From Psammoneis japonica (Eukaryota): DNA of 64,000 nucleotides. Positions 1-64,000 of this stretch are shown here, one piece after another. Location: assembly GCA_008632985.1 (NCBI GenBank), contig QPGO01000069.1, forward strand, positions 310,001-374,000. The letters are read 5' to 3'. Numbering within the stretch: position 1 is the first letter of the stretch; each line of letters starts with the position of its first letter. The notes under the pieces were generated by a model. It worked only from the letters and a program-made list of their open reading frames with translations, did no database searches and was not told where the DNA came from. The position numbers were made by a program, and so were the translations under genes.

Positions 1-3000
1 CTGAAGTGTTCCATGCTGACATGCTGATGCTTTTAGGAGACTGGGGAAGAGAGCTGCAAATGTCCCACACAGCATTGACATGTGGTGGACAAAAATGCTC
101 TCCTCCACAACCTGTCTGTCATGCTCTTGACTCATGCATCCAATTGCAGCAGTGCACTGTGGCTCTCTGGCATTGCCAAAGGCACCCCAAGAGAGCAAAA
201 CAATGTTTTTTTTTCATTTTTTCACAGAGCTGCTGGGCTTGTTGAAATGACTTTCCAAAAGATGCCAGCACACAACATCCAGGGTGGATCTTGTTGCGCC
301 TTTCTTGGCAATGTTGTTGCTGGGGTGATTGTGGTTGAACAAAAATGCATCATCTGACTGCCAGTGAAGACCTTGAACTTGCTTGATCCAGTCAGAAACA
401 AAACCAAATGCAGACAAAACTGTGGGATCCTCAACCAAGCACATGATGCCAATGCCAACACCATTGTGAGAATGTTTCCATCTGGTGCATTGACTCAAAT
501 TTTTTTTTTTCATCATCCTTGTGCATGCCCAGCAATTGATGCTTGGTGAAACCAGAGGAGGAAGAAGACTTGGACACAGAAAAGGCATGACAACCATCCA
601 ACTCTGTCAGATCATCAGCAGGTGTTTGGCTGGCTTTCCTGGAAAGAGCCCGGAAATCCAGATGATCAAGGATGGAATGACCAACATTGACAACATGGAA
701 GCAATGATTGCCGTGGTCACTGTTGGTGAATGGACTTCAAAACTCAAGGCATTGCCAGTGTGATGGAAAGTGGCAATGGACTTTTCCATGTTCTTGGAGC
801 AAGCCATCATGCAGCAACAATGCCTCCCGTCAATGCAAGTGGATGCCCAGCCAATGTCAAGATCAGGCAGCACCAAGTGAGTGCAAATGACATGCTGCAC
901 TGCTGCTCTTGACTTGCCTTCCCCACATTGCACAATTCTGGTGCACTCTTCCAGAAGGCATCTTTGGGTTGCTTGCAGACCATGCCAACATTCTCAAGTC
1001 CTCTCCATTTGCTGGGCAATGATTTGGGGACAGAAGCAGAAGTCTTGGTGGAGACAAGAGAAGGAGCTGTTGCAGAAGATTGAGGCAGACTTTTTTGGAC
1101 TGGTGACCACTTGTTGGCCAAGGCCACTCGTGGGGACAGAGATGGCAGCAGAAATGTCAGAAGCACACCACACAGATGAAATGACATGCACAGGAAGCAG
1201 AGCTTGACTTGGAGCCAACAGAACAGTGAAAGGGAGTGACAAAGACATTGTCAGACCAGATGTGGCATTGAAAAATGAGGGTGGCACATTGAACAATTGA
1301 GCTGGAATGGCAGGAGAGGATGCACCCCCCACAGTGCAAGACATCAAGCTCAAATCAATGCAGGAAGAGACACAGTGGGACAAGGCACCAAATGCAAGGT
1401 TCCACCAAGCACACCTTCTCCTGATCTCTGCAAGATCCCAATCCCACAAAGAAGGATCCAGCTGTTGCACCAAAGCAATGTGTGGGTGCACAGTGGGAGC
1501 GGTCATGGACAGAGTTGTTTGAAGGCAACTGAGACAAGCAAACTGCACCGCTGACTGGGCAGGCATGGGATGAACCCTGGCATCATCATCAGAGAGCCAT
1601 TGAACCATCACAGTTAAAAGATGTCTTGTCTTCTCTGTCAAAGAGCTCAAGCCTGCTCTTTTTGCTGAAAAACACTCAAAATCTTTCCTCTGTCTGTCTG
1701 TGGTGTGATGGGTGAGCAAACAACATGGGAAAGTGACAACTCAGTGAGCTGGCCATGAGCAAGGCAAGGCAGATGGTGGCAAGTTCACTTTTGCTCCATT
1801 GTGGCTTCAACAGTTGACTTGCCAAGAAGAGAAAGGTCTGGGAGCACCAAAAGAGAAAATGCAAACTCAATCAAGAATGTGCAGTGCAGGCAAGCAAGGA
1901 AAAAGCTGTGAGGGCCCAGAAGACAACCTCCATTTCCAATGTCAATTTCTCATTGACAATCAGCAATGCCAATTTCTCAAGTGTTGAAAAACTTGAGGAG
2001 GGTCATTCTCTCAGTTTTGATGATGGTGTGAGTCCAGATGTGCTGTTTGCAGTCAAAGTGCCCACCTGCTTGATGGATTGATCCTGTTCTCACAGAAGCA
2101 CAAGCAACCATCAATGCCTGATGCCAACATGGAAAATTGATGCATGACTCCTGGACTTTCTCTCACTTTGGCAACAACAAGAGGGTGACAAGAGTTGTGC
2201 TCCATTTGTTGACATCCCCAGGAGGGAAGGGTTGTCTGAAACTTTGCAGTGCAGCAGAGAGGAAGTTGTTGGCAACACCCAACACAACATGTTTGGAGCT
2301 GAGCAACCTCAGCTCATGACATTCTGGTGTTTGACCGCATGGGACATGGAGCATTGTTCCAGACACAAAAACCCAGCTTTGCTTGATCATGCCCAGCCAG
2401 CATCCTTCACACAGTGGGGGAGCAACCAAGAGCAAGGTGTCTCAGCAATCAGCATTGAGTCAGGTGACAAATGTGGAATCACGTGCTTTGCAGTCAAGGC
2501 CACACATCTCAAAAACAAGGAATGGGCAGCTTTTGACACCCAAGGGCTGGACACAAAAAGTGCACAAATTTCCCCCCAGTGGCGGCACAAGCTTCCCAGG
2601 TGAACAAAGACTGCCACCTGGCAAAGGTGGAGTGAGTGTTGTTTTTGAGGAGGTCAACAATTTGGAGAGAATTGTTCCTTTTCAATGCCATGGGAGCCAA
2701 AGCAGCAGCCAGAGCTGGTGCTGCTCTCACAGTTGATCAAGCATGGAATTGGAAAACCCGCCAATGAGCAATTTGGGAGAACAGTCACAGAAGGAGGTGG
2801 GCAGCTGTCAGGAGTGGAGAAGGATGGAGGGATCACATGACAGAGTGCACAGGGCATTGTTGGCAGATTGGTTGGGGGAAGAGGAGTCTGTGCAGAGGGC
2901 AGAAAGAAACCAAAGAGCATGAGCAGAGAGATGACATGAGATGTTGCAGCTCAATGTTTGGGGGTTGCCCACAGAGGGGGAGAAGAGGAGTGGCACATGC

Positions 3001-5300
3001 TGCCAACAAAGTGATCGCTGGTGAGGTGGTTCCAGGTGGAGTCACTGGAAGGAAGAAGGGAAGTGGGGAAGGTGTGGGCATGTGAAGAACAGCAGACAGA
3101 GTGGCAGGCATTGGAGCAATGGAGAGCACAGGCAGACTGCCAGGGAGGCTTGGGTTGAGAGTGAGTGGCGGGAAATGAAGAGCTCAAAAAAAAGTGGTGG
3201 AAGAAGATCCCCTTTTGTCAAGCAGAGATTGGGGTTCAGTGCAAAAGAGAGTCACATGGAGGTTGGGTGGTGGGAGAGGGTGGGAGGTGCACAGCAGAGG
3301 GGTGTGGAGGTGAAAAAAGAGGGCCCAAGGCACACACACAGACAGAAGTCTCAAGGAGCCTGATGACAATGAACCTCTCCCAGCAGGAGAATCATCTTTG
3401 TGGACTGGCAATGAACATTCGATGTCAAAGGTTGACTGAATGACACATGACAAAAGCATTTGGTGACTTTTGCTGAGGCATGACCTGCAAACATCTGGAC
3501 CAAGTTGAGCTGGGGACACCAAGAGTTGAACTGAGTGCAGGCTCTTCCAACTCTGTTCATTGCACCTGAAGCAACTGGCATGCCTGCATTGTGTGGCTCC
3601 ATGCATTTAGGGGTGGATTTTGTCACGCTCTTGGCCAGCATGCTTCTTTGTCATGTCTGTCTTTGGCAGCAGCATGTGGACAGTGCTGTGGCATTCACTC
3701 CACTGGCAACACATGCGGCATTGCATGACGCTGTCGGGCACCATTGGATGCCAAGGTGTGTCGTTTGCTCAAGGACACTCTCCTGAATGATTGCAAAGCA
3801 ACAGTTGCCCAGTCTTTGAGATGCTCCAGGAGAAAGAACCCAAGGATGCTTTTGGCCAATGGCAAGCATGACACAGACAAACTCATCATGGCGCAGCCTG
3901 GTGACTTGATCCACTTTCATCAATTGGAGATGATTTGGAACGTGCCACTGGTTTGCTCAGTTCCAAACTCAATCAGTCGGAAATGGTCCATTTTCAAGAA
4001 CTGACTCATGATGGACAGGCCAGGTGTCATTTGGATGAAGCCTCTGCTCTGTCAACAGTTGTGATCATTGGCGACAACCAGATGTGCCAAGGACAAGGAC
4101 CTGTTTTGCCAAAAGGCTGCATTGACGAACCAGTTCCACACATTTGTTCTAGATGCCACAGAATGTTTTCCTCAGTTCATTGCCACAGAGAGGAGCTGCT
4201 GTCCTTCCTGGTGCACAAACAAAGCCATTCAGTGATGCCAACACTTGCCTCATTGTTTCCATTCTTCCACAGTTCATTCTCCGCATCCGAAGTGAGCAAG
4301 GGTTTGGTTCATTGACTGCCGCACAGGTGTTGAGCAAATGCAGAGCAGTCATTTTGCATTGAAGAACCAATCATGCCTGGCACACATTTTGTTCCAGAAA
4401 ACATGAGTCGCAGGGCAGGACCCACTGTCACTTGAACCTTGGCACTTCAAAAAGACTGGCTGCCACATCATTTCAAGTTGGGTTGTCAAACCAGGGTGTG
4501 GAGTGCATTTCCATGTTGACAAAAAGAAGATGAAAAGCAACGTCAGCAAACAAATCTCAAATGAAAAGAAAAATGGACATGAAATTGACTTGCATTGGGG
4601 GTTCATTTGAATGCAACGTAGCACAATGAATGCACTCTATGGCATTGTGAAATGCACAACAAATTCATGCAATGAATCTCTTGCCACCCAAAACGGGTGT
4701 CATGTGGGTGTGACAAGGGATTCAAAGAGTTCTTGGAGCAGTCACGCCAGTTGGAATGGGAGGAGCGTCACCATCATAAATGTCTCAAAACATCATTTGG
4801 TCTGGTCTCCATCTGACACGACCGCTGCCAAACAGTTTTCATTTCAAGAGCAGCAGCCATGGGGATGTAAACTGCAAGGGAGCACAGATGGCAGCAATTG
4901 ATCTCTCTGATGGGCTTGTTGTTTTGGGATTAGATGCCTTGGATGAGCATGAAGGAGAAGTTCAGATTTGGTCTTTGAGGGCACGACATCCGATGCGCCA
5001 ATGGCACGGACACGTTCTTCCACAATGACTTTCTTCTTCACTTGTCTCTCAAACACTCCAAAAGCATCAAATTTCCAAGGTCACTGCACCCGTCATTGCA
5101 ATGTCATTGCCAATCTTGATCATTGACACTCTTTCATGAGCTGCATGCATTGAGTTGTGATGGAGCTTTGTCGGTGTCCATGGGGAAAGCTCAGTTTTTG
5201 ATGACTCTGTTTCAGTGCGAGTGAAGTTTGATCTCAGCACGACAACTCAATGAGCAAGAGGGAAGCAGGCTGAATGACACAAATGTCCAAATGTTTGAAT
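1..5300. mobile_element. Heavily degenerated repeat/TE-like domain depleted of both TpA and CpG; family not recognisable
   Basis: Only on the order of ten TA dinucleotides seen by eye in ~5.2 kb, few CG, strong TG/CA excess; many short overlapping Cys/His/Trp/Gln-rich ORFs with no recognisable domain. Confidence 0.55.
3348..3700 (+). repeat. Diverged copy of segment ~9202-9655 (3' end of F-box-like gene plus downstream flank)
   Basis: gtctcaaggagcctgatgacaatgaacct...gttgactgaatgacac matches gtctcaaggagcctgacgaaaatgaaccc...gtcgactgaatgacac; ctttggcagcagcatgtggacagtgct matches ctttggcaacggcgtgtggacagtgct. Confidence 0.85.
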
Positions 5301-5554
5301 GTTGTTGTGCTGCTGGCAAACTCAACCAGTCCCGCTGCCTCAACCGGTCCCGCCGGCTAACTGACGGATGGCTGCTTGCTTGATTTAAATTCCGAGCGCC
5401 GCTGCTCGCCGCCGCATCAACCCCACAGCGCAATGACAACGCAAGATGCTGGCAGTTTGTTCTTCCCAATGAACAAGCAATGCAATCACACTGCCAAAGA
5501 AAACCACAACACTGAGAGTTGCACCATCACACCTCCAAAGAATGACAAAATGCC

Positions 5555-6400
5555 ATGAGTCATTTTAATGGATTGTCAAGCATTTCGTCGTCGACAGAAA
5601 ATGCCGAAAACGCTGCTGCGAGCAGAAGGTCACAAATGGACAATGCACTCGATTGTTTCCTTGATGCTTCCACAGTTGCTTTGCAGATGCAAGACCAGGA
5701 CAATGCATTGAAAAATGTTAAAAACACTTTGCCAAAAGGGAGTAAAGTGACCAAGCGGAAATTGAAGGAAGCCAACGACCAGCTGGCGTTGGTGCAAAAC
5801 AGCATCTCCATTTTGCAAGTGGCAACAAAAGGAGCAACTGTGGCAGCTGCTCAAGCTTCTAGGATTCCCAATGTTGGACATGTCCACAACTGCTTGAACA
5901 GCAAAAGTGTGTGCGCAAGAAGCGAGTGGAAGAGCAACCAAGAAAAAACCAGAAGCCGTTTCCATCGCAAGAATCAAGCGCCGCACCGGCAGGTCAAAAA
6001 CCTGTGCCGGCAAAATCGGAATCCCTCATTGCATTGGAGGACATGTGCAAAGAAAATCAGCAGCTGCAACCAGAGACTCGTGCCCAAAACAAAAGACCTT
6101 GTCTCATGCCGTCATCTCATTTTCATGAAAACTTCCGAATGCCAACAAAAAAGGAAACAGGATTGTGCGGAAAATTTAAATTTGTCGACATGGTCCTGGC
6201 CATTCCCACATCAAAGCGCGCCAAAGTCATTGATTTTGCAATGGAAAACTCGATGATTCCATTGAGCAGCCGACGAGGGGCCAACAGGATCATCCAAAAG
6301 CGATCGAACGGCGCAGCCATGCACTCGGAGTGGGGCGCTTGTCCCGCAACTTCACGGTTTTTGGTTTGCCCCGTGCCATGCGCGGCCTTCACACGTCACG
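5555..6400 (+). pseudogene. Frameshifted, TA-depleted coding relic of unknown (possibly TE) protein
   Basis: Overlapping ORFs 5555-6256 and 5911-6423 read as protein-like (coiled-coil then KFKFVDMVLAIP...EWG), with no Tyr residues. Confidence 0.3.
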
Positions 6401-7550
6401 CGTCTCGCGCCACACCGCAATGACGACACACGACACTCTCATCACTCCAACTTGAAACTGCGCCGCGGCTCATCACTGGCCAGTTGTGCGCTGCCGGTGC
6501 CGGCAGACCCACATGAGGTGCTCCTCGCCGTCGATCATGACATTCTCCTGCCTCAGCATGCGGCAGTGTTGAAGGCAGAAAGAACAAAATTGAAAGGCAG
6601 AAAAGAAAAGGACCGACATGAGCATGCTGACGGCTCATTTGAAAAAGCGCAAGGCAGATGAGGAAGTGAGGGATCAGAAGATTCCTTCATTCAAAGCCTC
6701 AAAGAAACGTCTCAACGACGACACATCTGGAAGCAACGAAACGGAAACAGGTGACATCAGCTTGTTTCTGTCATCGCTTTCTATCGTCGCTGACAACGGC
6801 TGGCTTTCTGCGCAGCATCTTTGTCGCCTGGAATCGACCTCAAAAGCAACACAAGCATGGGTGAAAGACGATCACTGGAAAGTGGTTTGTTGCCTGCGTT
6901 GGCCCAACACGGCTGTTTTTTCCAAAGAGCATGTCCGTGATTTTGGAGGCTACAGAATGTGGTTCCGTCACAGGGCCGCCTCGTTGGTGCGGGAGAACGT
7001 GGATGCTAGACCACTCCCGCCTCCTACGATCGATGTAGAGCAAGTCAGGTTTCTAGTTGACATTTCGGTTTGCGGGAAATCGGTTTGTTCAAAATCTGTT
7101 ATGTTGAGCCCTGAAGGATGGAGACTTTGGTCTGAAAGCGGAGGTTTCGGGTTTCATTTAGAATCTCCTTTTATTGTCGGAGAAGCCCGCTGTTGGCGTG
7201 AGGGTGTGGACGGGCGTCGTTGCAATCATGGATGCAAATTCAATCCTCGTCAATGTGATGCTCGGATCCACCTCATGCGCTGTAAGGAAGAGTGGTCACC
7301 ACCTTTTTGCGTCTGTCAATCGGGAAGGAAGAATTGGATTCGTGCATTCTCAGCTGACAGTGTTGGTGAACCTCAAGACGGCATGTACGATTGGAAGAAC
7401 TCGTCAAAAGAATGGCTTGAATGTGACTCTGATGATCCTGCTTCCCATGACCATCATGGATGTCTGATGATGAGTGACACGCAAATGTCCAGAAGAGTTC
7501 AGCAACGACTGGGAAGCCCAATGCGTTTTTCGATGTGTCTTGCGCTCAAT

Positions 7551-8306
7551 GGAGTGGCGTGCTTTCAAAAATTCGGTGCGCACACCTGATCTGCACAAAA
7601 CACACGTACGTAAAAATGCACTGCAAAATTCGTAGAGATGTTTGTTTGAATTCACTTCACACACAAACATCACGGCAACGACGCCGCGACATCGGCAATG
7701 GACGCACACAACAACGACAGCGGACTGGGGGGTTGTGATGCACCGAGACAACAACTGATGTGATGAGAAATGAGGTGTCAATGTCAAATGACAATGATCG
7801 AGTTGTTTTGGGAGCTGGTTGAGCCATTGGTGACGAAGGGTTTTTGGCACGTACAACTTGGTGCTGAAATCACGCAGAGGTTTTGGCCGCGGTGGGACTG
7901 TTGTTTTTCACTTTTTTTGGGGTGCATTTTGTGTTTTCTCGGTCGATCGCATTGATGAAGCACTGAAGTGAGCACGCGACAACAGATTTTGACGAAAAGT
8001 TGGATTTTCATTCATTGTGGAGGATCAGCACGGGGTTTTTAACACGGTGAAGCACGGGGGGACGATTTTTTCACCAGATTTGCAAGATCCTGCATCCCAT
8101 CCAATTCGCGTGCGCAATGTCAGTGGATTGATGTATTTTTCATACGCAAGAAGCGCAATGACGTCGACATGCCCGACATGACAGACTTCCCGTGCTGTTG
8201 TCGTAATGAAGTGAAATCTTGTTGTGTTCGGTGCGCAGAGTCTAGTGCTGTTTGTCCGCATGCAGACGAGTGCTGCGCACCGCACTTTTGGAAAGTGCGC
8301 CACTCC
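7551..8306. mobile_element. MITE-like non-autonomous DNA transposon, copy 1 (~756 bp)
   Basis: ~33-bp imperfect terminal inverted repeats GGAGTGGCGT(G/A)CTTTC...CGGTGCGCA; flanked by AT on both sides; no credible ORF. Confidence 0.85.
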
Positions 8307-8308
8307 AT

Positions 8309-9063
8309 GGAGTGGCGTACTTTCAAAAATTCGGTGCGCACACCTGACCCACACAAAATGTGCGCACGTAAAAATGTCCTACAAAATTCGTAGAGATGTT
8401 CATTTGAATTCACTTCACACACAAACATCACGGCAACGACGCCGCGACATCGGCAATGGATGCACACAACAACGACAGCGGACTGGGAGGTTATGATGCA
8501 CCGAGACAACAACTGATGTGACAAGAAATGAGACATCAATGTCAAATGACAATGATCGAGTTGTTTTGGGAGCTGGTTGAGCCATTGGTGACGAAGGGTT
8601 TTTGGCACGTACAACTTGGCACTGAAATCACGTAGAGGTTTTGGCCGCGGTGGGACTGTTGTTTTTCACTTTTTTTGGGGTGCTTTTGTGTTTTCTCGGT
8701 CGATCGCATTGATGAAGCACTGGAGTGAGCACGCGACAACAGATTTTGACGAAAAGTTGGATTTTCATTCATTGTGGAGGATTGGCACGGGGTTTTTAAC
8801 ACGGTGAAGCACGGGGGGACGATTTTTTCACCAGATTTGCAAGATCCTGTATCCCATCCAATTCGCATGCGTAACATTAGTGGATTGATGTATTTTTTAT
8901 ATGCAAGAAGCGCAATAACGTCGATGTACCCGACATGATAGACTTCCCGTGCTGTTGTCATAATGAAGTGAAATCTTGTTGTGTTCGGTGCGTAGAGTCT
9001 AGCACTGTTTGTCCGCATGTAGACGAGTGCTGCGCACCGCACTTTTGGAAAGTACGCCACTCC
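8309..9063. mobile_element. MITE-like element, copy 2, head-to-tail with copy 1
   Basis: Colinear with 7551-8306; termini GGAGTGGCGTACTTTC / GAAAGTACGCCACTCC are perfect inverted repeats; AT at 8307-8308 and 9064-9065. Confidence 0.85.
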
Positions 9064-9945
9064 ATGTGATTGAGCCGGGGGACAAGATTGCAGTTGCTGG
9101 TTTTGAAATCAACCTCTTTTGTGTCAATGACGGCAACTGGTTGGATTTTGACTCTGAGGCTGCAGAGGAGAAGGGCGTCTCTGTGTTGCATGTCATGGAG
9201 AGTCTCAAGGAGCCTGACGAAAATGAACCCCCCCCAGCCGGGGAATCATCGTTGTGGACGGACGAAGAGCATTCGATGTCGAAGGTCGACTGAATGACAC
9301 ACATGGCAGAAGTCTCTGGTGACTTTTGCTGAAGCAATTCGAGTGGTTTCGGCAAAACTTGCGCGTTGCCAACTTTGTGTGACAGCGTTGGAACGAAATC
9401 ACATTCAAAGGCGAACCGCATCTCGGCGGCCCAGTGTGCACCTACAGTGTGACCTTGAAATCTCTGGAGCGACTTGAACTAGGGATGCCGAGAGCTAAAC
9501 TAAATGGGGACTTTTCTGTTCATTTCACACGAAGCAACTGGTGCATGCCCACATTGCACGGCTCTGTGCATTTAGCGGCGGCTCTCGCCACGCTCTTGCA
9601 GCACGCTTCTTAGTCATGTCTTTGGCAACGGCGTGTGGACAGTGCTACAGTACTCTTCCTCTCAAAAGCTTTCGTGGGCTGCTACTCTCGCTCCGTTTAG
9701 TCCCTCGCTATTAGCCCAACGGCCTCGAAGTTTCTTGTCAGTAGTGACTGTCAAATCTTTGCCGTGCTGGTGACTACTAGAGTAGACCGGAGAACTGGAA
9801 CTAGCGTGGCGGCAAAAGAGATTTGGTCGTGACTCCCATCTTGGGGAAAATCAGATAATTTTACTTCTACTACACAGAGCTGAACTAATGTTGCTTCTTC
9901 TATTCTTACAACTCGAAGCAAGTTGTACAACTCCTCCTCTACGCC

Positions 9946-11127
9946 TTACATGCCTCCCGCCATCATCTGCTGCAGCATGGCAGGGTTCATTCCTCCTCCC
10001 ATGCCACCCATACCACTCATCATGCCTTCAATCATGTTGAGCATACTCGGAGGCGGCTGAATGTTGAAGTATGACTTTCCAATCTTGGTCGTGTACGTTT
10101 CGACAATCTGCGGCTTGTACATGACGTGGAGTTCCTTCTTGAAGGACCGAAGGAGCCACGAATAGAGAGGACCCGTCTTGGTATCCTTTTCACACACCCT
10201 CAAGAGCATGCAACCAAAGACAACGTGAGACGGGGACTTGCCATCGTCCTTTTTCATGTACGACTTGGTAAGATCGTCCATGGGTCGGTCTTCGACCTTT
10301 TCAATAAAGCCCCTTAGCAAAATGTTGGCGTCACGCAAATTCTCCACGGCGCAAAACAACAAGAGACTGCGAGTCAAGAGTGCATCACGATCCGCCGGGG
10401 GACACGTGTGTCCCATTTCCAATTCCTGATCCGTGGGCTTGGGAAGCGACTCGAGCCACGACAAGATCTGATCTGGCTTTTCGGCCAACACCATGTTTGT
10501 CACGGCATCACACTGCAGTGCATCACACGACTGTCCGTCCTCCTCATCGTCTACCATGTCATCGGCACCCTCTTCTTCTTCTTGTGCAAGCAGGGACAAC
10601 TTCCAGCATTGGTGTCCCATGAGTTCCAACAAGCGTTGATCTCCGAGTCGGATCTTTCCCAAATCGGCAGACCATTGAATGGCTCTTCGGAGAAAATCCC
10701 GTTCAAGTCGTTCCAATCGATTCCGTTCCGCCTTGGACGCAATGTCCGATTCATCCAGAGCTGTTTGTTGCGCCTGATGCAATTCGACAAGACGTCCAAT
10801 CCATTCGTCCGTCGCTTCTGTATGAGTCTCTCGCAACGCCTCCACCAAACACGTCAAGAGCTGAGATGCGACGGACACGCGATGATTCTTGAGAATGGTC
10901 AAACTGCCCTGGTAGGCCAAGTCGGTAGCACCGGCGTAATCTCCAGCCTTGACGCGTTTGCGAACCTGAGACTGAGCGAGCTGCAACGCTTCGTATGCAG
11001 TGGCTTCGTCCTTGAGATTCTCGCCCTCGAGCAATTCCTTTAGACGAAGGGATACCGCATCCTGACTGTTTTCGTTCTTTTTGCGAGCTTCCAACTGCTT
11101 ACGACGACGAGCTGCGGCGGCACTCAT
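9946..11127 (-). CDS. GET4: Golgi-to-ER traffic protein 4 (Get4/TRC35) homolog
   Basis: YEALQL..., FLRRAIQWS...GDQRLLELMG, ..TKIGKSYFNIQPP.. with Met/Gly-rich tail; start chosen at MSAAAARRRK. Confidence 0.75.
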   Translation of the reverse strand: MSAAAARRRKQLEARKKNENSQDAVSLRLKELLEGENLKDEATAYEALQLAQSQVRKRVKAGDYAGATDLAYQGSLTILKNHRVSVASQLLTCLVEALRETHTEATDEWIGRLVELHQAQQTALDESDIASKAERNRLERLERDFLRRAIQWSADLGKIRLGDQRLLELMGHQCWKLSLLAQEEEEGADDMVDDEEDGQSCDALQCDAVTNMVLAEKPDQILSWLESLPKPTDQELEMGHTCPPADRDALLTRSLLLFCAVENLRDANILLRGFIEKVEDRPMDDLTKSYMKKDDGKSPSHVVFGCMLLRVCEKDTKTGPLYSWLLRSFKKELHVMYKPQIVETYTTKIGKSYFNIQPPPSMLNMIEGMMSGMGGMGGGMNPAMLQQMMAGGM

Positions 11128-11536
11128 TACTATTATATTTACAGCGAGGTTGCTGGATACAAGCAACAACAAACACAACAGCAACAACACGGAGATGGGA
11201 GAGTGTGATGAAAAAAAGATGTGCGGTGCGGTGTGCGCCGACGCGACACGTGGGAAGGATCGACCTAGTATGTGCTCACGTAGAATTGTACGCAGTCATT
11301 CGATTATCCGAAAGACAGACACGCTTCACCGGCACGCATGCAAAGGATAAGCGCACCCTAAACACAGATAAGAAGGCGTTCATGCAAAGAATGTGCTTAT
11401 CAGTCATAGGCGGAAAACGAAACTTCGACAGTCATCTCGCTCGCTCGTTGGCTTCACAAATCACAAATTGTTGTTGTTGTTGCTCTTGTGTATTGTTGCT
11501 GTATTGTGTTTCATGTTGTCGTTGTTCTTGTCCAAG

Positions 11537-13059
11537 ATGAAGACACCCAGTGTGTTCAAAAAGAGCTTGGGAGCTTTGGCCTTTTTGATTTTGTTTCTTC
11601 CGCTGCACAAGTTTTTTTCATGGTTGCCTTTCATCAAACGACTTCTGCTGCCGCCGACCAACAACAAACAGCCCTGTCGTCCATGCTGGAGCAAAGCAAA
11701 ACAACAACAACTATACACGACGTTACAACAAGAAAGATGGAACCTTTAATGGATTGTATCTCATGTATAGAGAGCCACTCCCCACGTCTCATGCACACTG
11801 TGTGGGAGAAAACTATCGAGAACATTCTTGGATTGGGCGGTCTTGTGACTTTCGATACTTGTGTTTCGATACGAGCAACACGAGTTTGTTTTGTTTCGAT
11901 CCGAAATTGAAGCCAAGCTCACAAAGCCTTGGGAGCGACCAATCATAACTTTACGGATGTTCCACACAATATCGAATGATTCTCACGTTTCGATAGGAGG
12001 CATCAATTTGAAATGGAACAAGAGGGATATGACCGACTCAAGTGGTTTCCCAAGATTGTGGATGTTGAAAGCATGACGGAACAAACGGGCTTTTATGAAT
12101 TGCCATCGGATGTGGTTTGGATTCCGATTCATTCGCTTGCCGGATACAATCCCGGTCATTTAGTTTGGGACGACCTTTTGCCGACCTATACGTTGCTGTC
12201 CATGTTTATGCACTTGGACGACAAGAAGCGTCCACTCTTGATGCGAATGGTTCTAAGAGACCCCCTCTGGGCTTCATGTGACTTTGAACCAAAAAAGAAG
12301 CTCTGTCAAACCATGATTCGAAAGTTTATTCCAATGATGGGTATGGATCCGACTTCGTTTAGTACCTTTCATGACTTTGCATTCAACACCACCAACGGTG
12401 AACCACCCAAATCAAAGTATGTTTGTGCTCGACACGGAGCAGCCGGTATTGGAATGTTGACTGATCACGGAACCAAGTTGCATGGATGGAGTCATGAGGA
12501 TTATGAAACGACACACAATCACGGACGAGCTGCAAATTTTTATCAATTTCGAAACTTTTGTTTACAGAATTTGGGCATACCCGTCAAGCCAGCCAATGCC
12601 AAACCGCCATTTAAGGTTACCTTTTCCGTGAGTTCATCGGCACGTGCCGTTGGAATATACGGTAATTTGGATCATCAAATTGACGCTGTCGAAAAGGCCT
12701 TTCGTGGTGAGGAGGTGATTGTACAAAAGTACAAAATGAGTGACCTTTCGTTAAAAGAGCAAGTACAGATTGCAGCCGACTCGAACATATTCATCACCAT
12801 GGCGGGAGGGGGTGCGGTCACTGCGTTTTTCCTTCCCAAGGGGTCGTCTTTGATTTTGTATTATGATGAGATGGGTGGGGTTCACAGAGGTAGACCAAAC
12901 AAGCGTCCCGCCAGATTGGACTGGGACATTTTCAACAATGCGGCACACATTTCAGCCCATTGGCTCCCGCTTCGAACATTCAAGAAAGACGAGGATGTTG
13001 AGGCCTTGGTTCAGCTGATACGATATGAACTCGACAGCATAAAGGCACTGTCCCAATGA
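11537..13059 (+). CDS. Putative glycosyltransferase (GT61/DUF563-like), type II membrane; frameshifts in 5' part
   Basis: N-terminal TM, HCVGENY...RSCDFRYLCFD, NPGHLVWDD, SLKEQVQIAADSNIFITMAGGGAVTAFFLPKGS. Confidence 0.7.
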
Positions 13060-13499
13060 TGTAGATGACTCTGAGAAGAATTGAGGTATAGAGGACTAGT
13101 CTCAATCCTGCGTACCGGTAGTTTCATCTCCGATTCAATCCATACCTAATACTACTCTTCTCTGCTATACTTACTCCTAGTAGTAGCTAATAGGGGCCCT
13201 CCTAACAGTTGCTCTCTACTCTCTAGCTCTAGAGCTAGAGTGAGGAGTCGTCCCCGCCCGCCCCTCGCTCGCCCGCCCTATCCCGCCCGCGCGCCCTTCA
13301 AGCATGGTCGGTGTCCGTCCGTCCATCCATGTTCAATGTTATGTTCATCGTCGTCATTCGTCCTTGGCCATGGCGATATGGCGAGGAAAGCGTTGACGCA
13401 AGCGGTGGTACTATATGAGCAGAGACTGTGACTCATTGAATTGTCGCTTCTGTTTATTTCAATGACACAGCATAGATGCAAATAAAGCTCTCTTACGCC

Positions 13500-15089
13500 A
13501 TGGTTGGAATACGAAACGGTATGTTCTGAAGCAAGTGTGCGCAGAAGGGATCTTGATCTCGGCGCTTCTAACTGTCGATTACGTTGTTTCTTTCTGATCA
13601 GGAATCGTCTTTGGTCTCTTGGCGGTATTGGGGCTAGTGATTGCTATTGGAGAGCTTTTTTACCTTCATTCTCAGTATTCGTTTCACGATGAATTACACC
13701 ATCCGCCGCCGCTCGTGGAGAAGAGCGAGAATCATCAATCAGTTCCAATCATCGCGGCTGAGAATGCACCAAAAGACGGGACTTTTAACGGTTTGAATAT
13801 AGCATACAGGAAGGGAAACATCACTTCTAGTGTACACTGTGTTGGGGAAAATTACCAAGCAGACTCATGGATGTATCGATCCTGTGACTTTCGAAATCTG
13901 TGCTTTGACACTGAGCAACACGAGTTTGTCTTGTTTCGCTCCTCCAAAGAGTCGGCCTTGTACGAGGCCCTGAACAAAACCCAACATGAATACATAGATA
14001 TCTCCACCACATCACATACCAACGTTTCTCTTGGTGGCATTAATCCAAAGTGGGTAAACGAATGGGATCGAATGAAATGGTTTCCACAAATGATCGAGAC
14101 GGACGAATTGGAGAATGTGGGCTACTATGAATTGCCTTTGAGTACGGTTTGGATTCCCTTCCATTCTCTTGCCGGCTTCAATCCCGGACATTTGGTGTGG
14201 GACGACTTTTTACCGATATTTACACTGCTTTCCATGTTTTCGCACGTTCAAGACAAGAGACAACCCTTGATGATGCGCAAGGTTATGCGACCCTATCTTT
14301 GGGCAACATGCGACAACAAGGAAAGCAATACGATAACATGCCGCGCCATGTTTCGAAAATTTTTACCCATTATGGGTATCAATCCCGACTCGTTTAGCAC
14401 CTTTGACGATTTCATGTTCAACACAACGGATGACGACTCGGCTCCACGATCAAAATATGTTTGTGCTCGACACGGTGTCGCCGGAATCGGAATGCTGACG
14501 ATCACGGAACCAAGTTGCATGGATGGAGTGCCGAGGATTATAAAACTACCCATAATCATGGACGAGGTGCCATCTTGTACCAATTTCGAAACTTTGTGCT
14601 GACCAACTTGGGTATTCCAATCAAGCCGGTGATTGCAGAACCTCCCTTCAAGATTACCTTTTCCATTAGCTCGTCGGCTCGCCCAAATCGCAACGTTGAC
14701 ATGAAGACTCAAATGGATGCAGTCCGAAACGCATTCCCTAATGATACTGTTATTGTGCAGGCCTTTAAAATGAGCGATCTTTCCTGGCAGAACAGGTCAA
14801 AATTGCAGCCGAGTCAACCGTTTACGTGACGGTTTGTGGCGGTGGTGCAGTGACGGGGATATTTCTTCCACGGGGATCAAGTTTGATTGTGTTTTACGAT
14901 GAAAAAGGTAGCTTGGAGGGCAACAGAAAAACTGGACTTCCTGCACGGCTCGACTGGGATGTTCTCAACAATGCTGCGTATCTCCGAACGCATTGGTTTC
15001 CCACTAGAAGCATGTCTACTCAAAATGACATTGACGCTCTTGTGGAGCTGATACGTTACGAAATCGATCTGATGCGATTAAATCAATGA
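13500..15089 (+). CDS. Tandem paralog of GT61-like glycosyltransferase; probable intron ~13519-13601; frameshifts near 14500 and 14790
   Basis: Same motifs as 11537-13059 (HCVGENY, NPGHLVWDD, DHGTKLHGW, ARLDWD) spread over three ORFs. Confidence 0.7.
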
Positions 15090-15425
15090 CCTCTTAAAAA
15101 AGAAAGGTTGTACGGTATGCTCTAGGAGCTAGAGAGAGTCTACATTAGGTTGTTAGAAGTCTATAAGTGTTTGAATCTTTTTTCGTCTGTCATCGCACGA
15201 ATGTTGGGTGGAGCTTCTGGCTGACGGTACCAGAAACTCTGTATGCTTCCACATACTCGAAACTCAGTATCTTTGAACGGACTTTGTAAATAAGTATGCT
15301 AAAATTGTCGAAGCGCGCCATTTTCTCGCCGTCGCTCCGCCGTCGCCTCGTCGTCGTCGTCCTCGTTGTCAACAAAAAAAGAAACAACACAATCGTTGTT
15401 TGTTGTCTGTGTTGTCTGCCGAACC

Positions 15426-61384: not shown

Positions 61385-61979
61385 GTGGTGCTGGCGTCGA
61401 GTTCATTCCGTCAAGGCTGATTTGTCGCAAGGCACCGTGCACAAATTGTGAGAATGGAGCATCAGCATCACGGATTTTTGTGATGCATTTATGTATCTTT
61501 GGTGTTGTTTCTCACTTCTTGTCATTTATTCGATGTTTGTGCTGCAAGGTTCTGTGGTGATTGGCTCTGTTCCGCTGACTTGCTCTTCGGAACTTGTCGT
61601 TGAACAATCGAACTGCGTTTCAAGTGGAACTGATGATCAAGAGTTGGCGGCGGTGATGTCTCAACGTCCCTTTGGCCGATTTTCGCGGTTCTTGTTTCAT
61701 TCTCAACGGCAATTGTACAAGGAATCCGACAGGCTTGGCTTTGTTGTGCAAAATTTCATTCCATGGAGATGGATTTGTTGAATGTCGATCGGCACCCAAG
61801 GCTGCTTCAATTGGAAGGGACGCTCCCGCAATGTTTTGGATTGAAAAAGGAATGCCGCAATGAAGCCCTGGACATGTTCACATGCAACATGAACATTGAA
61901 TGTGGCATGTGCACACAAACAAACATGAACTGACACGGAATGCAATCGCCGTCTGACCCCTTCATTCTTTCTGCTGCCG

Positions 61980-63938
61980 CTAAACCTGCAGCAATGGACT
62001 CAGACTGTTGTTGCGCTTGTCGTGTTTCAATGCATTGACAATCTGAGTCACTGGTTTTGATGCACCACAAACCTGACACACACGATCACAAGCCACCTGG
62101 GCACTCAATCCAGCTCGGACAAGCCCAGCCACCACGTCCCATGGAACCTTCCTTCTGCGGCACTTGTGCTTGACTCGACCGCGCTCTTCTCTGGTGAAGT
62201 CTTGTGCTGCTTTCCTTCCACCAATTCCATTCTCATGCTTTTGCCACAGAATGTGAATGGTCCTTGGATTTGGGCCAAGGGTGCTCTCATGCGGGACGTG
62301 GTTTGGATTGTTGTTGTTTGCACCTTGCTGAGGCGGGACGTTTCCTGCAGCTTGTTGGTTGCCTTCCTGGTTTCGCGCAACTCCAAATGCAGGCTGGGAA
62401 GCAAGGCGTCGCACATTGCATTCTACATTTGCAAGTCGACGCTCCAGCTGTGCATGATGATCATCAGAGCAGGCTTTGAGCTCCTCCATGACGCGACGCA
62501 ATGATCTCACCTCGGAGTGCATCGCAAGCAATGGATTTCGATCGACAAGCCCACGGCCGGCTGCGACGCCCCCATTCTGAGCGCCATTCCCCCCATCATC
62601 AACATCCACCACTTCATTGAAATGCACCTCAGCATCTTCACCAGTCACCACCATCAATGCTTTTTTAATTGGATTCTCGCCGACCGGCAGTTGATGAACT
62701 CCATTGCATGCTTGGAGAATGCGTTCTCTTAGATGTTGCGGAAGGTGCCAGCTTTCTTCTGAGAAAGCAAACCACAGCAGTGCTTTCCCAAGCACCAAAG
62801 CAATCTCAGCACCAAATTTGTTGTTTGTTGCTGGCGCCACATGCTCCAATAAAAAATCATTTGAAACTGGCCTCCAACACAGAGTGCTGAGGCAACCTTG
62901 GCATCCGGCCACGGCAACTCTACGTCATCATACAAATCCGACATGCGCTTGGACATTTTCCAACGGCCACGACAGTCCTTCTCATCTTTTTGGCACCCAT
63001 TGTTGCGGGCACGCGTTGAGCCATACTTTCTGTCACTGTGTGAGCCAACCAGTCCTTTGGTGCTTCCTGTTGCAGCAACAAATTCTGGATGAATGTACAC
63101 TTCGTTTGTGAGTGTCTTGGTGACTGCATCCTTCACCTTTTCTCCTCCTTCTGGCACACGAAGGTCATTGGTTAATCCAAAAATGCAAGGTGCACGTTCT
63201 GCGGCACCTCCTACACTGTGGAACACTTCCAGCCAAATTGCCAAGCCAAGCAAAGAACAAAACTGTGGGTCCAGCATTGCCCCAAAGAGAATTTGGTTTG
63301 GGGCATCTCTTCTTCCAGACAGTTCTTTGACCAATTTGGCCTTGCCCGCAGGGTGAAGTCATTGGCTGGATGGGGGGTGAAATTGTCATTAAGAAACTGC
63401 GTGCAATCATCGATTCGACCAATCATGTGAACCTGAAACCGGGACAAGCTTGGCATGAGATGCTTCCGCAGCATGGATTGGTCTGGTTTTCCTCGAGCAT
63501 TTTGATTTGAGCCCGGTGCTCCTCATCTTTCAATGGTCGTCTCTTTTTTGACGGTGCGCCTCTGTTCCGAGTTTCCTCTTTCTTGACCTTTTTGATGAGT
63601 TTGTTTGCATCGGTTGATCATGTCGGGTTGCCTTGGTTCGATTGAACATTCCACGGCATCAACCGGTTTGGCACGCAGCTGGAAATCGCCTTCTTCCAGC
63701 ATTCCAACAAACTTGACCTTGCTTGCTTGGGCAAGTCTTCTTTGCCTGGTTCGGGCGTTCCACACGCCTTTAGATTCATCCACCGCTTGACATCATCGGG
63801 GGTCATTTGAAGCAGCCTCTGGTTGGTGAACTCTTGCTCACATTGACAAGTCACCCCATCAAGAAATGACATGAGTGCCATCAAGGTTGGCTTGCAATCA
63901 TTTTTAGATGGCATGGTCTCCATTGCATTGTTGCACAA
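61980..63938 (-). mobile_element. Degenerate Crypton-like (CryptonS-type) tyrosine-recombinase transposon with C-terminal GCR1_C-like domain
   Basis: GSHSDRKYGSTRAR..GC.KDEKDCRGRWK...YDDVELPWPDAKVA (HxxR, W, catalytic Y); N-terminal WKKAISS...GNPT; C-terminal LWQKHENGIGGRKAAQDFTREERG..RRKVPWD; several frameshifts. Confidence 0.75.
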
Positions 63939-64000
63939 ATCGATCAGAAACGCGATGTTCCATGCAACAAATCGGTTGTTTCAATGCGGAAAAATTTCCC

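What the first reader, a model, noticed from the sequence alone, without database searches (positions are those of the whole stretch)
1..9650. Candidate repeat-targeted TpA->TpG/CpA hypermutation system ('reverse RIP')
Seen: TA dinucleotides are almost absent from 1-~9.65 kb (about ten by eye in the first 5.2 kb) and from 61.4-64 kb, but common in the gene-dense core. TG/CA is in excess. Duplicated sequences inside the domain differ mostly at TA/TG/CA positions. Established: 5mC deamination gives CpG->TpG/CpA and fungal RIP gives CpA->TpA; neither removes TA. Inference: a context-specific A:T->G:C process acts on repeats/heterochromatin. Candidates are a TadA/ADAT-like DNA adenine deaminase (TadA-derived editors favour TA), deamination or mispairing of a modified base at TpA, or Pol eta-type WA->WG error-prone repair. 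It would destroy Tyr codons, TAA/TAG stops, TATA boxes and TA target sites, so it could act as genome defence. I know of no description of this in diatoms, but I cannot search the literature.
Basis: partly seen in the sequence, partly recalled or inferred. Interest (0 to 1): 0.95.

Follow-up and report, generated by a model that had tools for sequence, protein, structure and literature searches.

The report
TA-erasing hypermutation on diatom transposon relics
Both ends of this diatom genome window are dead transposon-type DNA in which almost every TA step has been mutated to TG or CA, a defence-like hypermutation so far caught in action in only one unrelated alga.

Summary
In 1-4000 there are 3 TA (about 257 expected from base content, about 152 at the core's own rate). 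CA and TG are at 1.8-1.9 times expectation. The depletion fades out by about 9.6 kb and returns at 61385-64000.

Polarity is shown. The right domain is a frameshifted relic of a roughly 640-aa GCR1_C-family transposon-type gene. At 9 of 9 columns where its two nearest homologues have Tyr, it has His or Cys. In 80 related metagenome loci the family is normally TA-rich, yet three copies were erased independently: 1 of 75 ancestral TA sites kept, the losses split between TG and CA. Tandem copies in the left domain differ by TA/TG/CA states, and a third copy reads TA at 4 of 4 TG/CA swap sites.

The organism is a diatom. The same TpA-only A·T>G·C hypermutation was reported in 2026 for the chlorarachniophyte Bigelowiella natans (bioRxiv 10.64898/2026.01.13.699255). 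Six literature searches found nothing for diatoms.

Verdict: real, and a new member of a just-described kind. The enzyme and the targeting signal are unknown.

The parts
1..4000 (.). Deep domain: both TpA and CpG almost erased, CA/TG about 1.8 times expected. No recognisable gene.
   Evidence: TA 3 (o/e 0.01), CG 22 (0.09), CA 1.86, TG 1.77. TpA/ApT is 0.013 and (CpA+TpG)/(ApC+GpT) is 2.09, the inverse of RIP. None of the 85 ORFs (75 aa or longer) drawn from both domains reaches a Pfam cut-off. phmmer of the ORF at 997-1740(-) found 0 hits. X1 contigs match with 0-2 other letters.
4001..7000 (.). Middle zone: TpA erased, CpG only partly lost.
   Evidence: TA 15 (0.08), CG o/e 0.66. The ORF at 6594-7586 has no homologue. 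The summed depth of related X1 contigs is raised at 4003-6003 (171-374 against about 56-66), which suggests related copies elsewhere.
7001..9650 (.). Transition zone up to the boundary: TpA partly lost (o/e 0.27), CpG normal (1.00).
   Evidence: The last TA-free run is 9053-9443. A contig of the cDNA-like run X2 is identical over 9036-9522.
7545..9066 (+). Two tandem copies of a unit of about 760 bp (7545-8309 and 8303-9066) with inverted-repeat ends. The copies differ by TA/TG/CA state changes.
   Evidence: 93.6% identical. 46 transitions and 2 transversions. Steps: TA/TA 8, TA versus TG or CA 15 (14 with TA in the right-hand copy), TG/CA swaps 11, CG/CG 45, CG versus TG or CA 4. Adjacent double differences are 14 against 3.0 expected. 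A third copy in X1 (depth 346) reads TA at the 4 swap sites in 8341-8401.
3347..3687 (+). Repeat segment in the deep domain, copy of 9201-9646.
   Evidence: 84% and 74% identical. The deep copy has TG or CA at 13 sites where the edge copy has CG, with 0 the other way, and TG at 3 sites where the edge copy has TA.
9201..9646 (+). Edge copy of the same repeat segment, with CpG retained.
61385..64000 (.). Right-hand TA-poor domain, beginning behind an assembly gap (N run 61136-61384).
   Evidence: TA 18 (o/e 0.11), CA 1.66, TG 1.49, CG 0.68. 6 windows pass the B. natans thresholds.
61983..63917 (-). Frameshifted relic of a roughly 640-aa gene of a GCR1_C-domain family (transposon-type; 'Crypton-like' is recalled, not tested).
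   Evidence: The ORF at 61983-62924 has homologues at E 3e-94 (55% identity, 94% coverage) that carry PF12550. tblastn pieces in three frames reach 63917. It has 0 Tyr in 314 aa. 9 of 9 columns with Tyr in both nearest homologues read His (5) or Cys (4). Of 13 Tyr-majority columns over the whole relic: Cys 6, His 3, Tyr 1, Trp 1, Thr 1, Ser 1.
9946..11295 (-). First ordinary neighbour gene (GET4 family), which marks the end of the domain.
   Evidence: PF04190, E 3.9e-39. TA o/e is 0.40, inside the 0.36-0.71 range of 20 core ORFs, so no spill-over is seen.

Best explanation
The window comes from a diatom. Its two ends (1 to about 9600, and 61385-64000) are dead transposon-type or repeated DNA. 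There, nearly every TpA has been converted in place to TpG or CpA. These are A·T>G·C transitions at the self-complementary TpA step, and they hit one strand or the other at random, site by site. In the oldest part (1-4000), ordinary CpG>TpG/CpA decay has been added on top. Both processes feed the same TG/CA pool, so GC content stays near 47-50%.

The TA process is separate from CpG decay and much faster. It is specific to TpA rather than to WA or to A in general. It runs to saturation and stops within a few hundred bases of the neighbouring genes. It abolishes Tyr codons (to His or Cys) and TAA/TAG stops, so it permanently inactivates the element.

It matches the TpA hypermutation seen in real time in Bigelowiella natans.

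Most likely mechanism (inferred, not shown): an enzyme acting on DNA is directed to silenced or foreign chromatin. The leading candidate is an adenine deaminase of the ADAT/TadA kind, whose tRNA substrate A34 always follows U33 (recalled). Modification of the thymine in TpA would leave the same trace.
For: (1) Depletion. TA o/e is 0.01, 0.08 and 0.27 across 1-9650 and 0.11 at 61401-64000, against 0.59 in the core. CA+TG is at 1.5-1.9.

(2) Outgroup polarity in the window.
- The ORF at 61983-62924 has 0 Tyr. At 9 of 9 columns where both nearest homologues have Tyr it has His (5) or Cys (4).
- R>H 3, R>C 2 and R>Q 2 mark CpG decay.
- Over the whole relic, 1 of 13 Tyr-majority columns is kept. 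Other residues are kept far more often: F 11 of 17, W 8 of 10, L 28 of 37, K 24 of 29.

(3) The family is not TA-poor. 72 of 80 related metagenome loci have TA o/e of 0.43-1.07.

(4) DNA-level polarity in that family.
- At sites where the majority of 16 TA-normal copies has TA, the three erased copies keep 0 of 27, 1 of 22 and 0 of 26.
- Outcomes are TG 14, 12, 12 and CA 11, 7, 12.
- Four control copies keep 19 of 23, 21 of 29, 24 of 28 and 21 of 28.
- A>G after A is 0.07-0.10 in erased copies and 0.02-0.08 in controls.
- The TG/CA outcome agrees between erased copies in 13 of 19, 11 of 22 and 8 of 17 shared sites, and each erased copy is nearer to a normal copy than to another erased one. The erasures were therefore independent.

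(5) In-place action in the left domain.
- The tandem copies differ by 46 transitions and 2 transversions. There are 15 TA-versus-TG/CA sites and 11 TG/CA swaps, but only 4 CG-versus-TG/CA sites against 45 shared CG. The swaps therefore cannot come from CG ancestors.
- A third copy reads TA at 4 of 4 swap sites that it covers.
- Two in-window control pairs inside genes have transition:transversion ratios near 1 (165:176 and 23:24).

(6) Not an assembler artefact. X1 contigs reproduce 1-4322. A cDNA-like contig is identical over 9036-9522, which includes the TA-free run 9053-9443.

(7) Precedent. In B. natans, 230 of 231 de novo mutations in two viral inserts were A>G or T>C, all of these at TpA, and TpA-depleted CDS were enriched for DDE and reverse-transcriptase domains (Results and Discussion read).
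Against: - No whole genome is held, so the link to repeats or transposons could not be tested genome-wide.
- The left domain has no identifiable origin. Of the 85 ORFs scanned from both domains, 0 reach a Pfam cut-off, and 8 have sub-threshold hits at E 0.011-0.049. Searches found no homologues for three of its ORFs.
- Polarity in the left domain rests on parsimony plus 4 sites seen in a third copy.
- X1 may be the same data the assembly was made from. All runs were laid as contigs, not raw reads.
- No de novo event was observed. The window-versus-X1 differences in 6040-7650 (7 in 1612 bases, both directions) may be alleles of a diploid.
- No strand-coherent runs of TG or CA were found (z from -0.9 to 1.2). 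So there is no trace of a processive single-strand enzyme.
- The enzyme, the targeting signal and any link to methylation or histone marks are untested.
- The related metagenome contigs are of unknown organism.
Confidence: 0.85

Rival explanations
1. The altered base is the thymine, not the adenine. A modified T at TpA (for example a hydroxymethyl-uracil or base-J type product of a dioxygenase) mispairs or is repaired wrongly, giving T>C. This is a variant of the main explanation with a different chemistry.
For: TpA is self-complementary, so A>G on one strand and T>C on the other cannot be told apart. TG and CA outcomes are about equal (434 and 460 in 1-4000; 38 and 30 in erased family copies). 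That modified T tends to sit before A in some protists is recalled, not tested.
Against: Nothing here speaks directly against it. The weak preference for TAC on the edited strand (35 against 17, p 0.018) reads equally well as GTA on the other strand. No such base is known to me in diatoms (recall).
Confidence: 0.2
2. RNA-level A-to-I hyper-editing (ADAR-like) of transposon transcripts, followed by reverse transcription and re-insertion.
For: ADARs prefer a 5' U (stated in the B. natans Discussion). A>G hypermutated retroelement copies exist in animals (search listings only).
Against: - The tandem copies diverged in place by this pattern.
- The depletion grades across non-coding flanks over about 2.5 kb.
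- Both strands are hit equally, without strand runs.
- The identified target is a GCR1_C-family gene, and no reverse transcriptase was found.
- ADARs are confined to animals (recall).
Confidence: 0.04
3. Error-prone repair by a Pol eta-type polymerase (WA>WG) in repeatedly damaged or repaired heterochromatin.
Against: In erased family copies A>G after A is 0.07-0.10, like the controls (0.02-0.08), while both strands together remove 74 of 75 TA sites. Surviving TA in the window are enriched for TTA/TAA (30 of 72 flanks against 21% in the core, p 7e-5). So the A/T-rich context is the spared one.
Confidence: 0.04
4. Artefact: a DNA modification at TpA, or an assembly or polishing error, makes TA read as TG or CA.
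For: X1 may be the assembly's own data, and only contigs could be laid.
Against: - A separate assembly of the run gives the same letters in 1-4322.
- A cDNA-like contig is identical across the TA-free 9053-9443.
- The same signature occurs in unrelated metagenome assemblies.
- Each TA is replaced at random by TG or CA, and differently in sister copies. That is what fixed mutations look like, not systematic miscalls.
Confidence: 0.03
5. The domains are foreign DNA that was TA-poor when it arrived, or TA is removed by selection.
For: TA is under-represented in the whole window (core o/e 0.59).
Against: - Homologues keep Tyr and TA.
- Erased and normal copies of one family coexist.
- The relic is frameshifted, so it is not under protein selection.
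- An o/e of 0.01 over non-coding DNA is far beyond any known avoidance (inference).
Confidence: 0.02

Closest known systems
Localised TpA hypermutation in Bigelowiella natans (Mettrop et al., bioRxiv 10.64898/2026.01.13.699255; abstract, Results and Discussion read; supplements closed)
   Same: - Only A·T>G·C transitions at TpA, giving TpG or CpA depending on the strand.
- Confined to foreign or mobile DNA beside ordinary genes.
- Long-term trace of TpA depletion with CpA+TpG excess. The window passes that paper's own thresholds.
- Their TpA-depleted CDS subgroup has a mean TpA frequency of 0.0018. Here 1-4000 has 3 TA in 4000 bases (0.00075).
   Different: - Different lineage: a diatom (stramenopile) rather than a chlorarachniophyte (Rhizaria).
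- Their active targets are giant-virus and virophage inserts that are still TA-rich. Here the targets are burnt-out transposon-type relics.
- Here CpG decay is superimposed.
- No de novo events were observed here.
- Their candidate enzyme (an ADAT2 homologue) could not be looked for, because no genome is held.
Repeat-induced point mutation (RIP) of fungi
   Same: Point-mutation inactivation of mobile or duplicated DNA, confined to a domain, with a dinucleotide preference and saturating effect.
   Different: Opposite chemistry and direction. RIP is C>T at CpA and makes TpA. Here TpA/ApT is 0.013 and (CpA+TpG)/(ApC+GpT) is 2.09, the inverse of RIP indices. Dependence on duplication was not shown here.
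5-methylcytosine deamination (CpG decay) of methylated transposons
   Same: It is present here as a second process: CG o/e is 0.09 in 1-4000; 13 sites show CG>TG/CA in the deep copy of the repeat segment, with 0 the other way; R>H/C/Q occur in the relic. It feeds the same TG/CA pool.
   Different: It cannot remove TA and it is uncoupled from TA loss. Zone 7001-9650 has TA 0.27 with CG 1.00. The family copy L072 lost 44% of CpG but kept 72% of TA.
APOBEC and ADAR editing of retroelements and viruses in animals
   Same: Deaminase-type hypermutation used against mobile or foreign nucleic acid. ADAR shares the 5' U/T preference.
   Different: Those act on single-stranded DNA during reverse transcription or on double-stranded RNA, and leave strand-biased clusters. 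Here both strands are hit equally, without runs, and the change is in place in chromosomal DNA.

Membership tests
TpA>TpG/CpA localised hypermutation (B. natans type) | Mutations are almost only A>G or T>C, and fall on TpA | tested here: met
   Erased family copies keep 1 of 75 majority-TA sites and 68 of the 74 losses are TG or CA, while other A contexts look like the controls. In the window, Tyr>His/Cys at 9 of 9 columns. The tandem pair shows 46 transitions and 2 transversions, 37 of the 48 differences at TA/TG/CA steps.
TpA>TpG/CpA localised hypermutation (B. natans type) | [quoted passage not shown] | tested here: met
   25 overlapping windows in 1-8750 and 6 in 61251-63500 qualify, and none in 10001-60500. 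My windows step by 250 bases; the paper's do not overlap.
TpA>TpG/CpA localised hypermutation (B. natans type) | Targets are foreign or mobile DNA; neighbouring host genes are spared | tested here: inconclusive
   The right domain is a GCR1_C-family gene relic. GET4 next to the left domain has ordinary TA. In L068 an erased element lies beside a TA-normal EF-hand gene. The origin of the left domain could not be identified.
TpA>TpG/CpA localised hypermutation (B. natans type) | Observed de novo, episodically, at about 1000 times the background rate | not testable with these tools
   No mutation-accumulation or time-series reads are available. The only indirect figure comes from the tandem pair: at least 37 events over 68 TA site-copies, against 7 differences in about 354 other columns.
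Fungal RIP | C>T at CpA, so TpA rises and CpA/TpG fall (TpA/ApT high, (CpA+TpG)/(ApC+GpT) low) | tested here: not met
   The indices are 0.013 and 2.09 in 1-4000, against 0.64 and 1.20 in the core.
ADAR-type RNA hyper-editing copied back into DNA | Strand-coherent clusters of A>G on the transcribed strand | tested here: not met
   The runs test of TG against CA along the domains gives z from -0.92 to 1.20, like the core.
Pol eta WA>WG mutagenesis | A>G raised after both T and A | tested here: not met
   After T: 0.46-0.48 per strand. After A: 0.07-0.10, against 0.02-0.08 in controls.
Crypton-like (tyrosine-recombinase) transposon, for the right-domain relic | GCR1_C DNA-binding domain | tested here: inconclusive
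   PF12550 passes its cut-off in homologues P0121, P0122, P0127 and P0129, and P0132 is below it. The window ORF itself has no Pfam hit at E <=0.05, though it aligns to those homologues at E 3e-94.
Crypton-like (tyrosine-recombinase) transposon, for the right-domain relic | Tyrosine-recombinase catalytic domain and element ends | not tested
   Pfam gives 0 families for the intact 642-aa relative L002:524-2449. The Crypton label is recalled, not shown. A MULE transposase ORF lies next to it in L002.

The most novel reading that the evidence does not exclude
TpA-directed editing of chromosomal DNA is an old, widespread genome-defence system of SAR eukaryotes, perhaps wider. A dedicated enzyme shared by diatoms and chlorarachniophytes would permanently kill transposons and integrated viruses by erasing every TpA. 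The weak TAC preference and the sparing of TTA/TAA would then be the enzyme's footprint, pointing to an ADAT/TadA-derived DNA adenine deaminase. That would be a natural counterpart of laboratory adenine base editors.
Probability: 0.35. Interest if true: 0.9.

Novelty: new member of a known kind. Interest (0 to 1): 0.7.

Why it matters
Until 2026 no natural process was known that removes TpA from eukaryotic DNA. One preprint has now shown it in a single chlorarachniophyte.

Finding the saturated end-state in a diatom, and three independent erasures in an environmental transposon family, suggests the process is not a curiosity of one species. It may be a more general defence against mobile DNA.

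- Enzyme search. It can now go by comparison: look for what B. natans and TA-erasing diatoms share and other algae lack.
- Experiments. Diatoms are genetically tractable, so knock-outs and DNA-deaminase assays become possible.
- Annotation. Erased elements lose all Tyr codons and two of the three stop codons, so they produce long spurious ORFs and escape domain searches, as the left domain does here.
- Applied interest. A natural TpA-specific A·T>G·C editor acting on DNA would be of interest.

Tried and rejected
- Whole genome: none is held. No genome-wide scan and no search for deaminases was possible.
- Pfam on 85 ORFs of the two domains: 0 reach a cut-off. 8 have sub-threshold hits (for example rve_3 at E 0.039), which I did not use.
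- ORF 6594-7586: no homologue at E <=0.01 among 489 candidates.
- ORF 997-1740(-): 0 phmmer hits in 1.84 billion representatives.
- ORF 5546-6253: no usable Atlas hit.
- Idea that 3347-3687 and 9201-9646 are the two LTRs of one retrotransposon: dropped. Nothing gag- or pol-like lies between them.
- Strand-coherent patches of TG against CA: none.
- Spill-over into the neighbouring GET4 gene: none. Its TA o/e of 0.40 lies within the 0.36-0.71 range of 20 ORFs.
- Window is B. natans itself: rejected. All 12 hits of a 3-hydroxyacyl-CoA dehydrogenase exon that carry an organism name, among the 120 listed, are diatoms at 69-74% identity. The best unnamed hits reach 80%.
- Runs: X3 laid nothing, and X2 has no cover over 1-3336. 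Neither is evidence of anything.
- Summed contig depth is no copy number. I use it only as a hint of related copies.
- Window domains against the 80 loci by blastn: only short matches from the right domain, none from the left.
- Earlier findings of this scan: 4 look-ups, nothing that bears on this.
- bioRxiv supplements are closed. I did not see the B. natans cluster list or mutation tables (Tables S2, S10).
Full report
**1. The observation**

The window has 64,000 bases with one long N run (61136-61384) and one single N. Counts below are given as count (observed/expected from base content).

| Region | TA | CG | CA | TG |
|---|---|---|---|---|
| 1-4000 | 3 (0.01) | 22 (0.09) | 460 (1.86) | 434 (1.77) |
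| 4001-7000 | 15 (0.08) | 0.66 | 1.55 | 1.63 |
| 7001-9650 | 47 (0.27) | 1.00 | | |
| Core 10001-61000 | 2058 (0.59) | 0.99 | 1.12 | 1.15 |
| 61401-64000 | 18 (0.11) | 0.68 | | |

- At the core's own TA rate, 151.7 TA are expected in 1-4000. The Poisson chance of 3 or fewer is 8e-61.
- The missing TA (about 254) and CG (about 214) together roughly equal the surplus of CA+TG (about 400). This also explains why GC content stays at 47-50%.
- There is no simple repeat in the domain.
- The fungal RIP indices are inverted: TpA/ApT is 0.013 and (CpA+TpG)/(ApC+GpT) is 2.09, against 0.64 and 1.20 in the core.
- With the thresholds of the B. natans paper, 25 overlapping 1-kb windows on the left and 6 on the right qualify, and none between 10001 and 60500.
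- The left boundary lies at about 9450-9600. The last long TA-free run is 9053-9443. This is about 350-500 bases from the 3' end of a GET4-family ORF.

**2. Is it in the DNA?**

One search for public runs gave three coded runs of one sample. I laid them as Logan contigs.

- X1 covers all of 1-20000. Its contigs match 1-4322 with 0-2 other letters each, at a word depth (63-95) close to that of the genes (56-61).
- X2 skips two GT..AG introns (13517-13601 and 16137-16218), so it behaves like cDNA. This is an inference.
- One X2 contig is identical to 9036-9522, which spans the TA-free run 9053-9443.
- X1 may be the data behind the assembly, and contigs are not raw reads. This rules out an assembler slip, but not a systematic read error.
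- The same signature in unrelated metagenome assemblies (section 5) and the random TG-or-CA outcome make an artefact unlikely.

**3. The organism**

The core holds ordinary eukaryotic genes: GET4, the DNA primase small subunit, 3-hydroxyacyl-CoA dehydrogenase, AAA ATPases, an ABC ATPase, a GHMP kinase and a mitochondrial carrier.

Among the 120 best relatives of the dehydrogenase exon, all 12 that carry an organism name are diatoms, at 69-74% identity. They include Epithemia, Fragilaria, Nitzschia, Cylindrotheca, Fistulifera, Mayamaea and Chaetoceros.

The window is therefore from a diatom, not from Bigelowiella natans. No whole genome is held.

**4. Polarity inside the window**

*(a) Right domain.*
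- The ORF at 61983-62924 (minus strand, 314 aa) has homologues at E 3e-94 (55% identity over 94% of its length) that carry the GCR1_C domain PF12550. An Atlas look-up had given the same lead.
- tblastn shows that 61983-63917 holds a whole copy of the roughly 640-aa gene, broken into three frames. It is a pseudogene.
- The ORF has no Tyr, while its homologues have 4-10 Tyr in the same columns.
- At all 9 columns where both nearest homologues have Tyr, the window has His (5) or Cys (4). That is TAY>CAY or TGY.
- Over the whole relic, 13 Tyr-majority columns read Cys 6, His 3, Tyr 1, Trp 1, Thr 1, Ser 1. Other residues are kept far more often: Phe 11 of 17, Trp 8 of 10, Leu 28 of 37, Lys 24 of 29 and Arg 28 of 38.
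- R>H (3), R>C (2) and R>Q (2) are the expected traces of CpG decay.

*(b) Left domain.*
- The tandem copies 7545-8309 and 8303-9066 differ at 48 of 764 columns, by 46 transitions and 2 transversions.
- Two in-window control pairs inside genes give 165:176 and 23:24.
- Among pyrimidine-purine steps: TA/TA 8, TA against TG or CA 15 (14 with TA in the right-hand copy), TG against CA 11, CG/CG 45, CG against TG or CA 4.
- Adjacent double differences number 14, against 3.0 expected.
- A TG/CA swap needs a palindromic ancestor, TA or CG, that mutated separately in both copies. Only 4 single CG losses stand against 45 shared CG, so CG ancestors would give about 0.04 swaps. TA ancestors fit.
- A third copy, seen as an X1 contig of depth 346 over 8341-8401, reads TA at all 4 swap sites in that stretch. 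It also reads TA at two further sites where only one tandem copy has changed.

*(c) The repeat segment.* The segment 3347-3687 (deep) and its copy at 9201-9646 (edge) show CG>TG/CA in the deep copy at 13 sites, with none the other way.

**5. Polarity in relatives**

- One metagenome scan with the family alignment gave 80 loci.
- 72 of them have whole-locus TA o/e of 0.43-1.07, so the family is not TA-poor.
- Four loci are erased (0.01-0.06): L061 and L064 (99.4% identical, so one element), L062 and L067. Four are partly so (0.26-0.37): L057, L059, L060 and L068. The first 993 bases of L068 are 99.1% identical to L067.
- The TA-free patches have sharp or graded edges inside contigs.
- In L068 the erased part is the family homologue, and the TA-normal part holds an EF-hand gene. 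In L047 a kinase gene is TA-normal.

I aligned the 29 of 80 loci that match L067 over at least 900 bases. For the ancestral state I took the majority of 16 TA-normal copies. I dropped 13 of the 29: 5 erased, 4 partly depleted and 4 near-duplicates.

| Copy | Majority-TA sites kept | Went to TG | Went to CA |
|---|---|---|---|
| L067 (erased) | 0 of 27 | 14 | 11 |
| L062 (erased) | 1 of 22 | 12 | 7 |
| L064 (erased) | 0 of 26 | 12 | 12 |
| L055 (control) | 19 of 23 | | |
| L072 (control) | 21 of 29 | | |
| L040 (control) | 24 of 28 | | |
| L045 (control) | 21 of 28 | | |

- A>G or T>C in other contexts, erased copies against controls: after A 0.07-0.10 against 0.02-0.08; after C 0.03-0.11 against 0.02-0.07; after G 0.01-0.05 against 0.00-0.03.
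- CpG is kept at 0.48-0.66 in erased copies and 0.56-0.87 in controls. CpG decay therefore goes its own way: L072 lost 44% of CpG but kept 72% of TA.
- The TG/CA outcome agrees between erased copies at 13 of 19, 11 of 22 and 8 of 17 shared sites. Each erased copy is nearer to a normal copy than to another erased one (L067-L055 87.3% against L067-L062 80.7%). These are three independent erasures.

**6. Properties of the process**

- *Strand.* Both strands are hit alike, and neighbouring sites are independent. The runs test of TG against CA gives z from -0.92 to 1.20 in the four domain segments, like the core.
- *Context.* It is TpA-specific, not WA.
- *Spared sites.* Surviving TA in 1-7000 and 61401-64000 are enriched for a flanking T on the 5' side, counted on both strands: 30 of 72 flanks against 855 of 4114 in the core (chi-square p 7e-5). 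TTA/TAA is therefore relatively spared.
- *Weak TAC preference.* In the family, the edited strand more often has C after the A (35 against 17, p 0.018) and less often G (15 against 29, p 0.049). The 65 events come from at most 32 sites in three copies, and the two tests mirror each other, so this is only a weak hint.
- *Speed.* In the tandem pair at least 37 events fell on 68 TA site-copies. That compares with 4 on about 98 CpG site-copies and 7 differences in about 354 other columns. This is tens of times faster than CpG decay or background change.
- *No spill-over.* It does not visibly enter the next gene. GET4 has TA o/e 0.40, within the 0.36-0.71 range of 20 core ORFs.
- *Window against X1.* X1 differs at 7 of 1612 bases in 6040-7650 and at 7 of 8038 in 11966-20000. 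Four of the seven in the domain switch between CG and TG or CA, and two between TA and CA or TG. They go in both directions and may be alleles.

**7. Mechanism**

*Shown:* a directional TpA>TpG/CpA change, made in place, strand-symmetric and saturating, on transposon-type and repeated DNA, and separate from CpG decay.

*Inferred:* an enzyme is directed to silenced or foreign chromatin. An adenine deaminase of the ADAT/TadA kind is the leading candidate. Its natural target, A34 of tRNA, always follows U33 (recalled), and the B. natans authors name an ADAT2 homologue.

Because TpA is its own complement, a route through a modified thymine leaves the same trace. I give it 0.2.

RNA editing with retro-copying, Pol eta-type repair, an artefact, and ancestral TA-poverty are each disfavoured by a test above.

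**8. Comparison with what is known**

- The closest match is the preprint on B. natans (bioRxiv 10.64898/2026.01.13.699255; abstract, Results and Discussion read; supplements closed).
  - 231 of 302 de novo mutations fell in a giant-virus insert and a virophage insert. 230 of the 231 were A>G or T>C, and all of these were at TpA.
  - They appeared only in some lines, at about 6e-7 per site per generation.
  - The paper reports 124 TpA-depleted/CpA+TpG-rich clusters genome-wide, and enrichment of DDE and reverse-transcriptase domains among TpA-free CDS.
- The window meets the signature tests of that system, in another lineage and in its saturated end-state.
- It is the inverse of fungal RIP.
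- Diatom transposon methylation and RID-like DNMT4 genes of unknown function are on record (PMC9998398, passages read), and they account for the CpG part.
- Six searches found no report of TpA loss or A·T>G·C hypermutation in diatoms. Only listings were seen for the other papers. PMC11884799 was checked by passages and is not relevant.

**9. Verdict**

- The trigger and the enzyme remain open.
- The kind of process is no longer unknown: this is a new member of a kind described in 2026.
- It matters because it takes the process from one alga to a major, tractable group, with hints of wider occurrence.

Noticed in passing
L061/L064, L062, L067/L068, L060, L047 (metagenome loci): Environmental contigs of unknown eukaryote(s) carry TA-free patches of 1.5-4 kb with sharp or graded edges. 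In L061 there are 3 TA in 3817 bases. In L068 there are 0 TA in the first 1500 bases, then a rise to normal by about 2750. In L068 the TA-normal part holds an EF-hand gene, and in L047 a protein kinase gene.
   Followed up: partly
window 54465-54702 and 54816-55053: Two 238-base stretches, 100% identical, flank the single N at 54815. This looks like an assembly overlap duplicated at a gap, inside or beside the mitochondrial-carrier ORF 53547-54575.
   Followed up: no
window 7545-9066, palindrome 8274-8340: The tandem unit of about 760 bp begins and ends with inverted repeats of about 30 bases, which form a palindrome at the junction. The summed depth of related X1 contigs over 7338-9338 is 10-18 times that of the flanks, and a cDNA-like contig of a related copy (13 other letters) covers 8597-9041. 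It may be a non-autonomous element that is transcribed somewhere in the genome.
   Followed up: partly
window 11783-12869 and 13822-14902: Two neighbouring paralogous genes, 68% identical at the DNA level. The first carries a glycosyltransferase-61 domain. I used them as an ordinary-divergence control (transitions 165, transversions 176).
   Followed up: partly
window 20396-20834: A 174-base coding tandem repeat (1.8 copies, 91% matches; a weaker third copy by blastn) lies inside the 808-aa ORF 18683-21109, which has no Pfam family.
   Followed up: no
window 15303-16948: The DNA primase small-subunit gene is split by an 80-base GT..AG intron (16138-16217), which a cDNA-like contig of run X2 skips. 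A second intron, 13518-13600, is confirmed the same way.
   Followed up: partly
L002 2757-5969: Directly downstream of an intact 642-aa member of the GCR1_C-family gene lies a 1071-aa ORF with MULE transposase, RNaseH-like and SWIM domains. The family may travel with, or sit among, Mutator-like elements.
   Followed up: no
window 6040-7650 against 11966-20000: The window and the X1 contig differ at 7 of 1612 bases inside the domain, against 7 of 8038 in the genes. The 7 in the genes all lie within 14248-14722. These could be allelic differences or ongoing mutation.
   Followed up: partly
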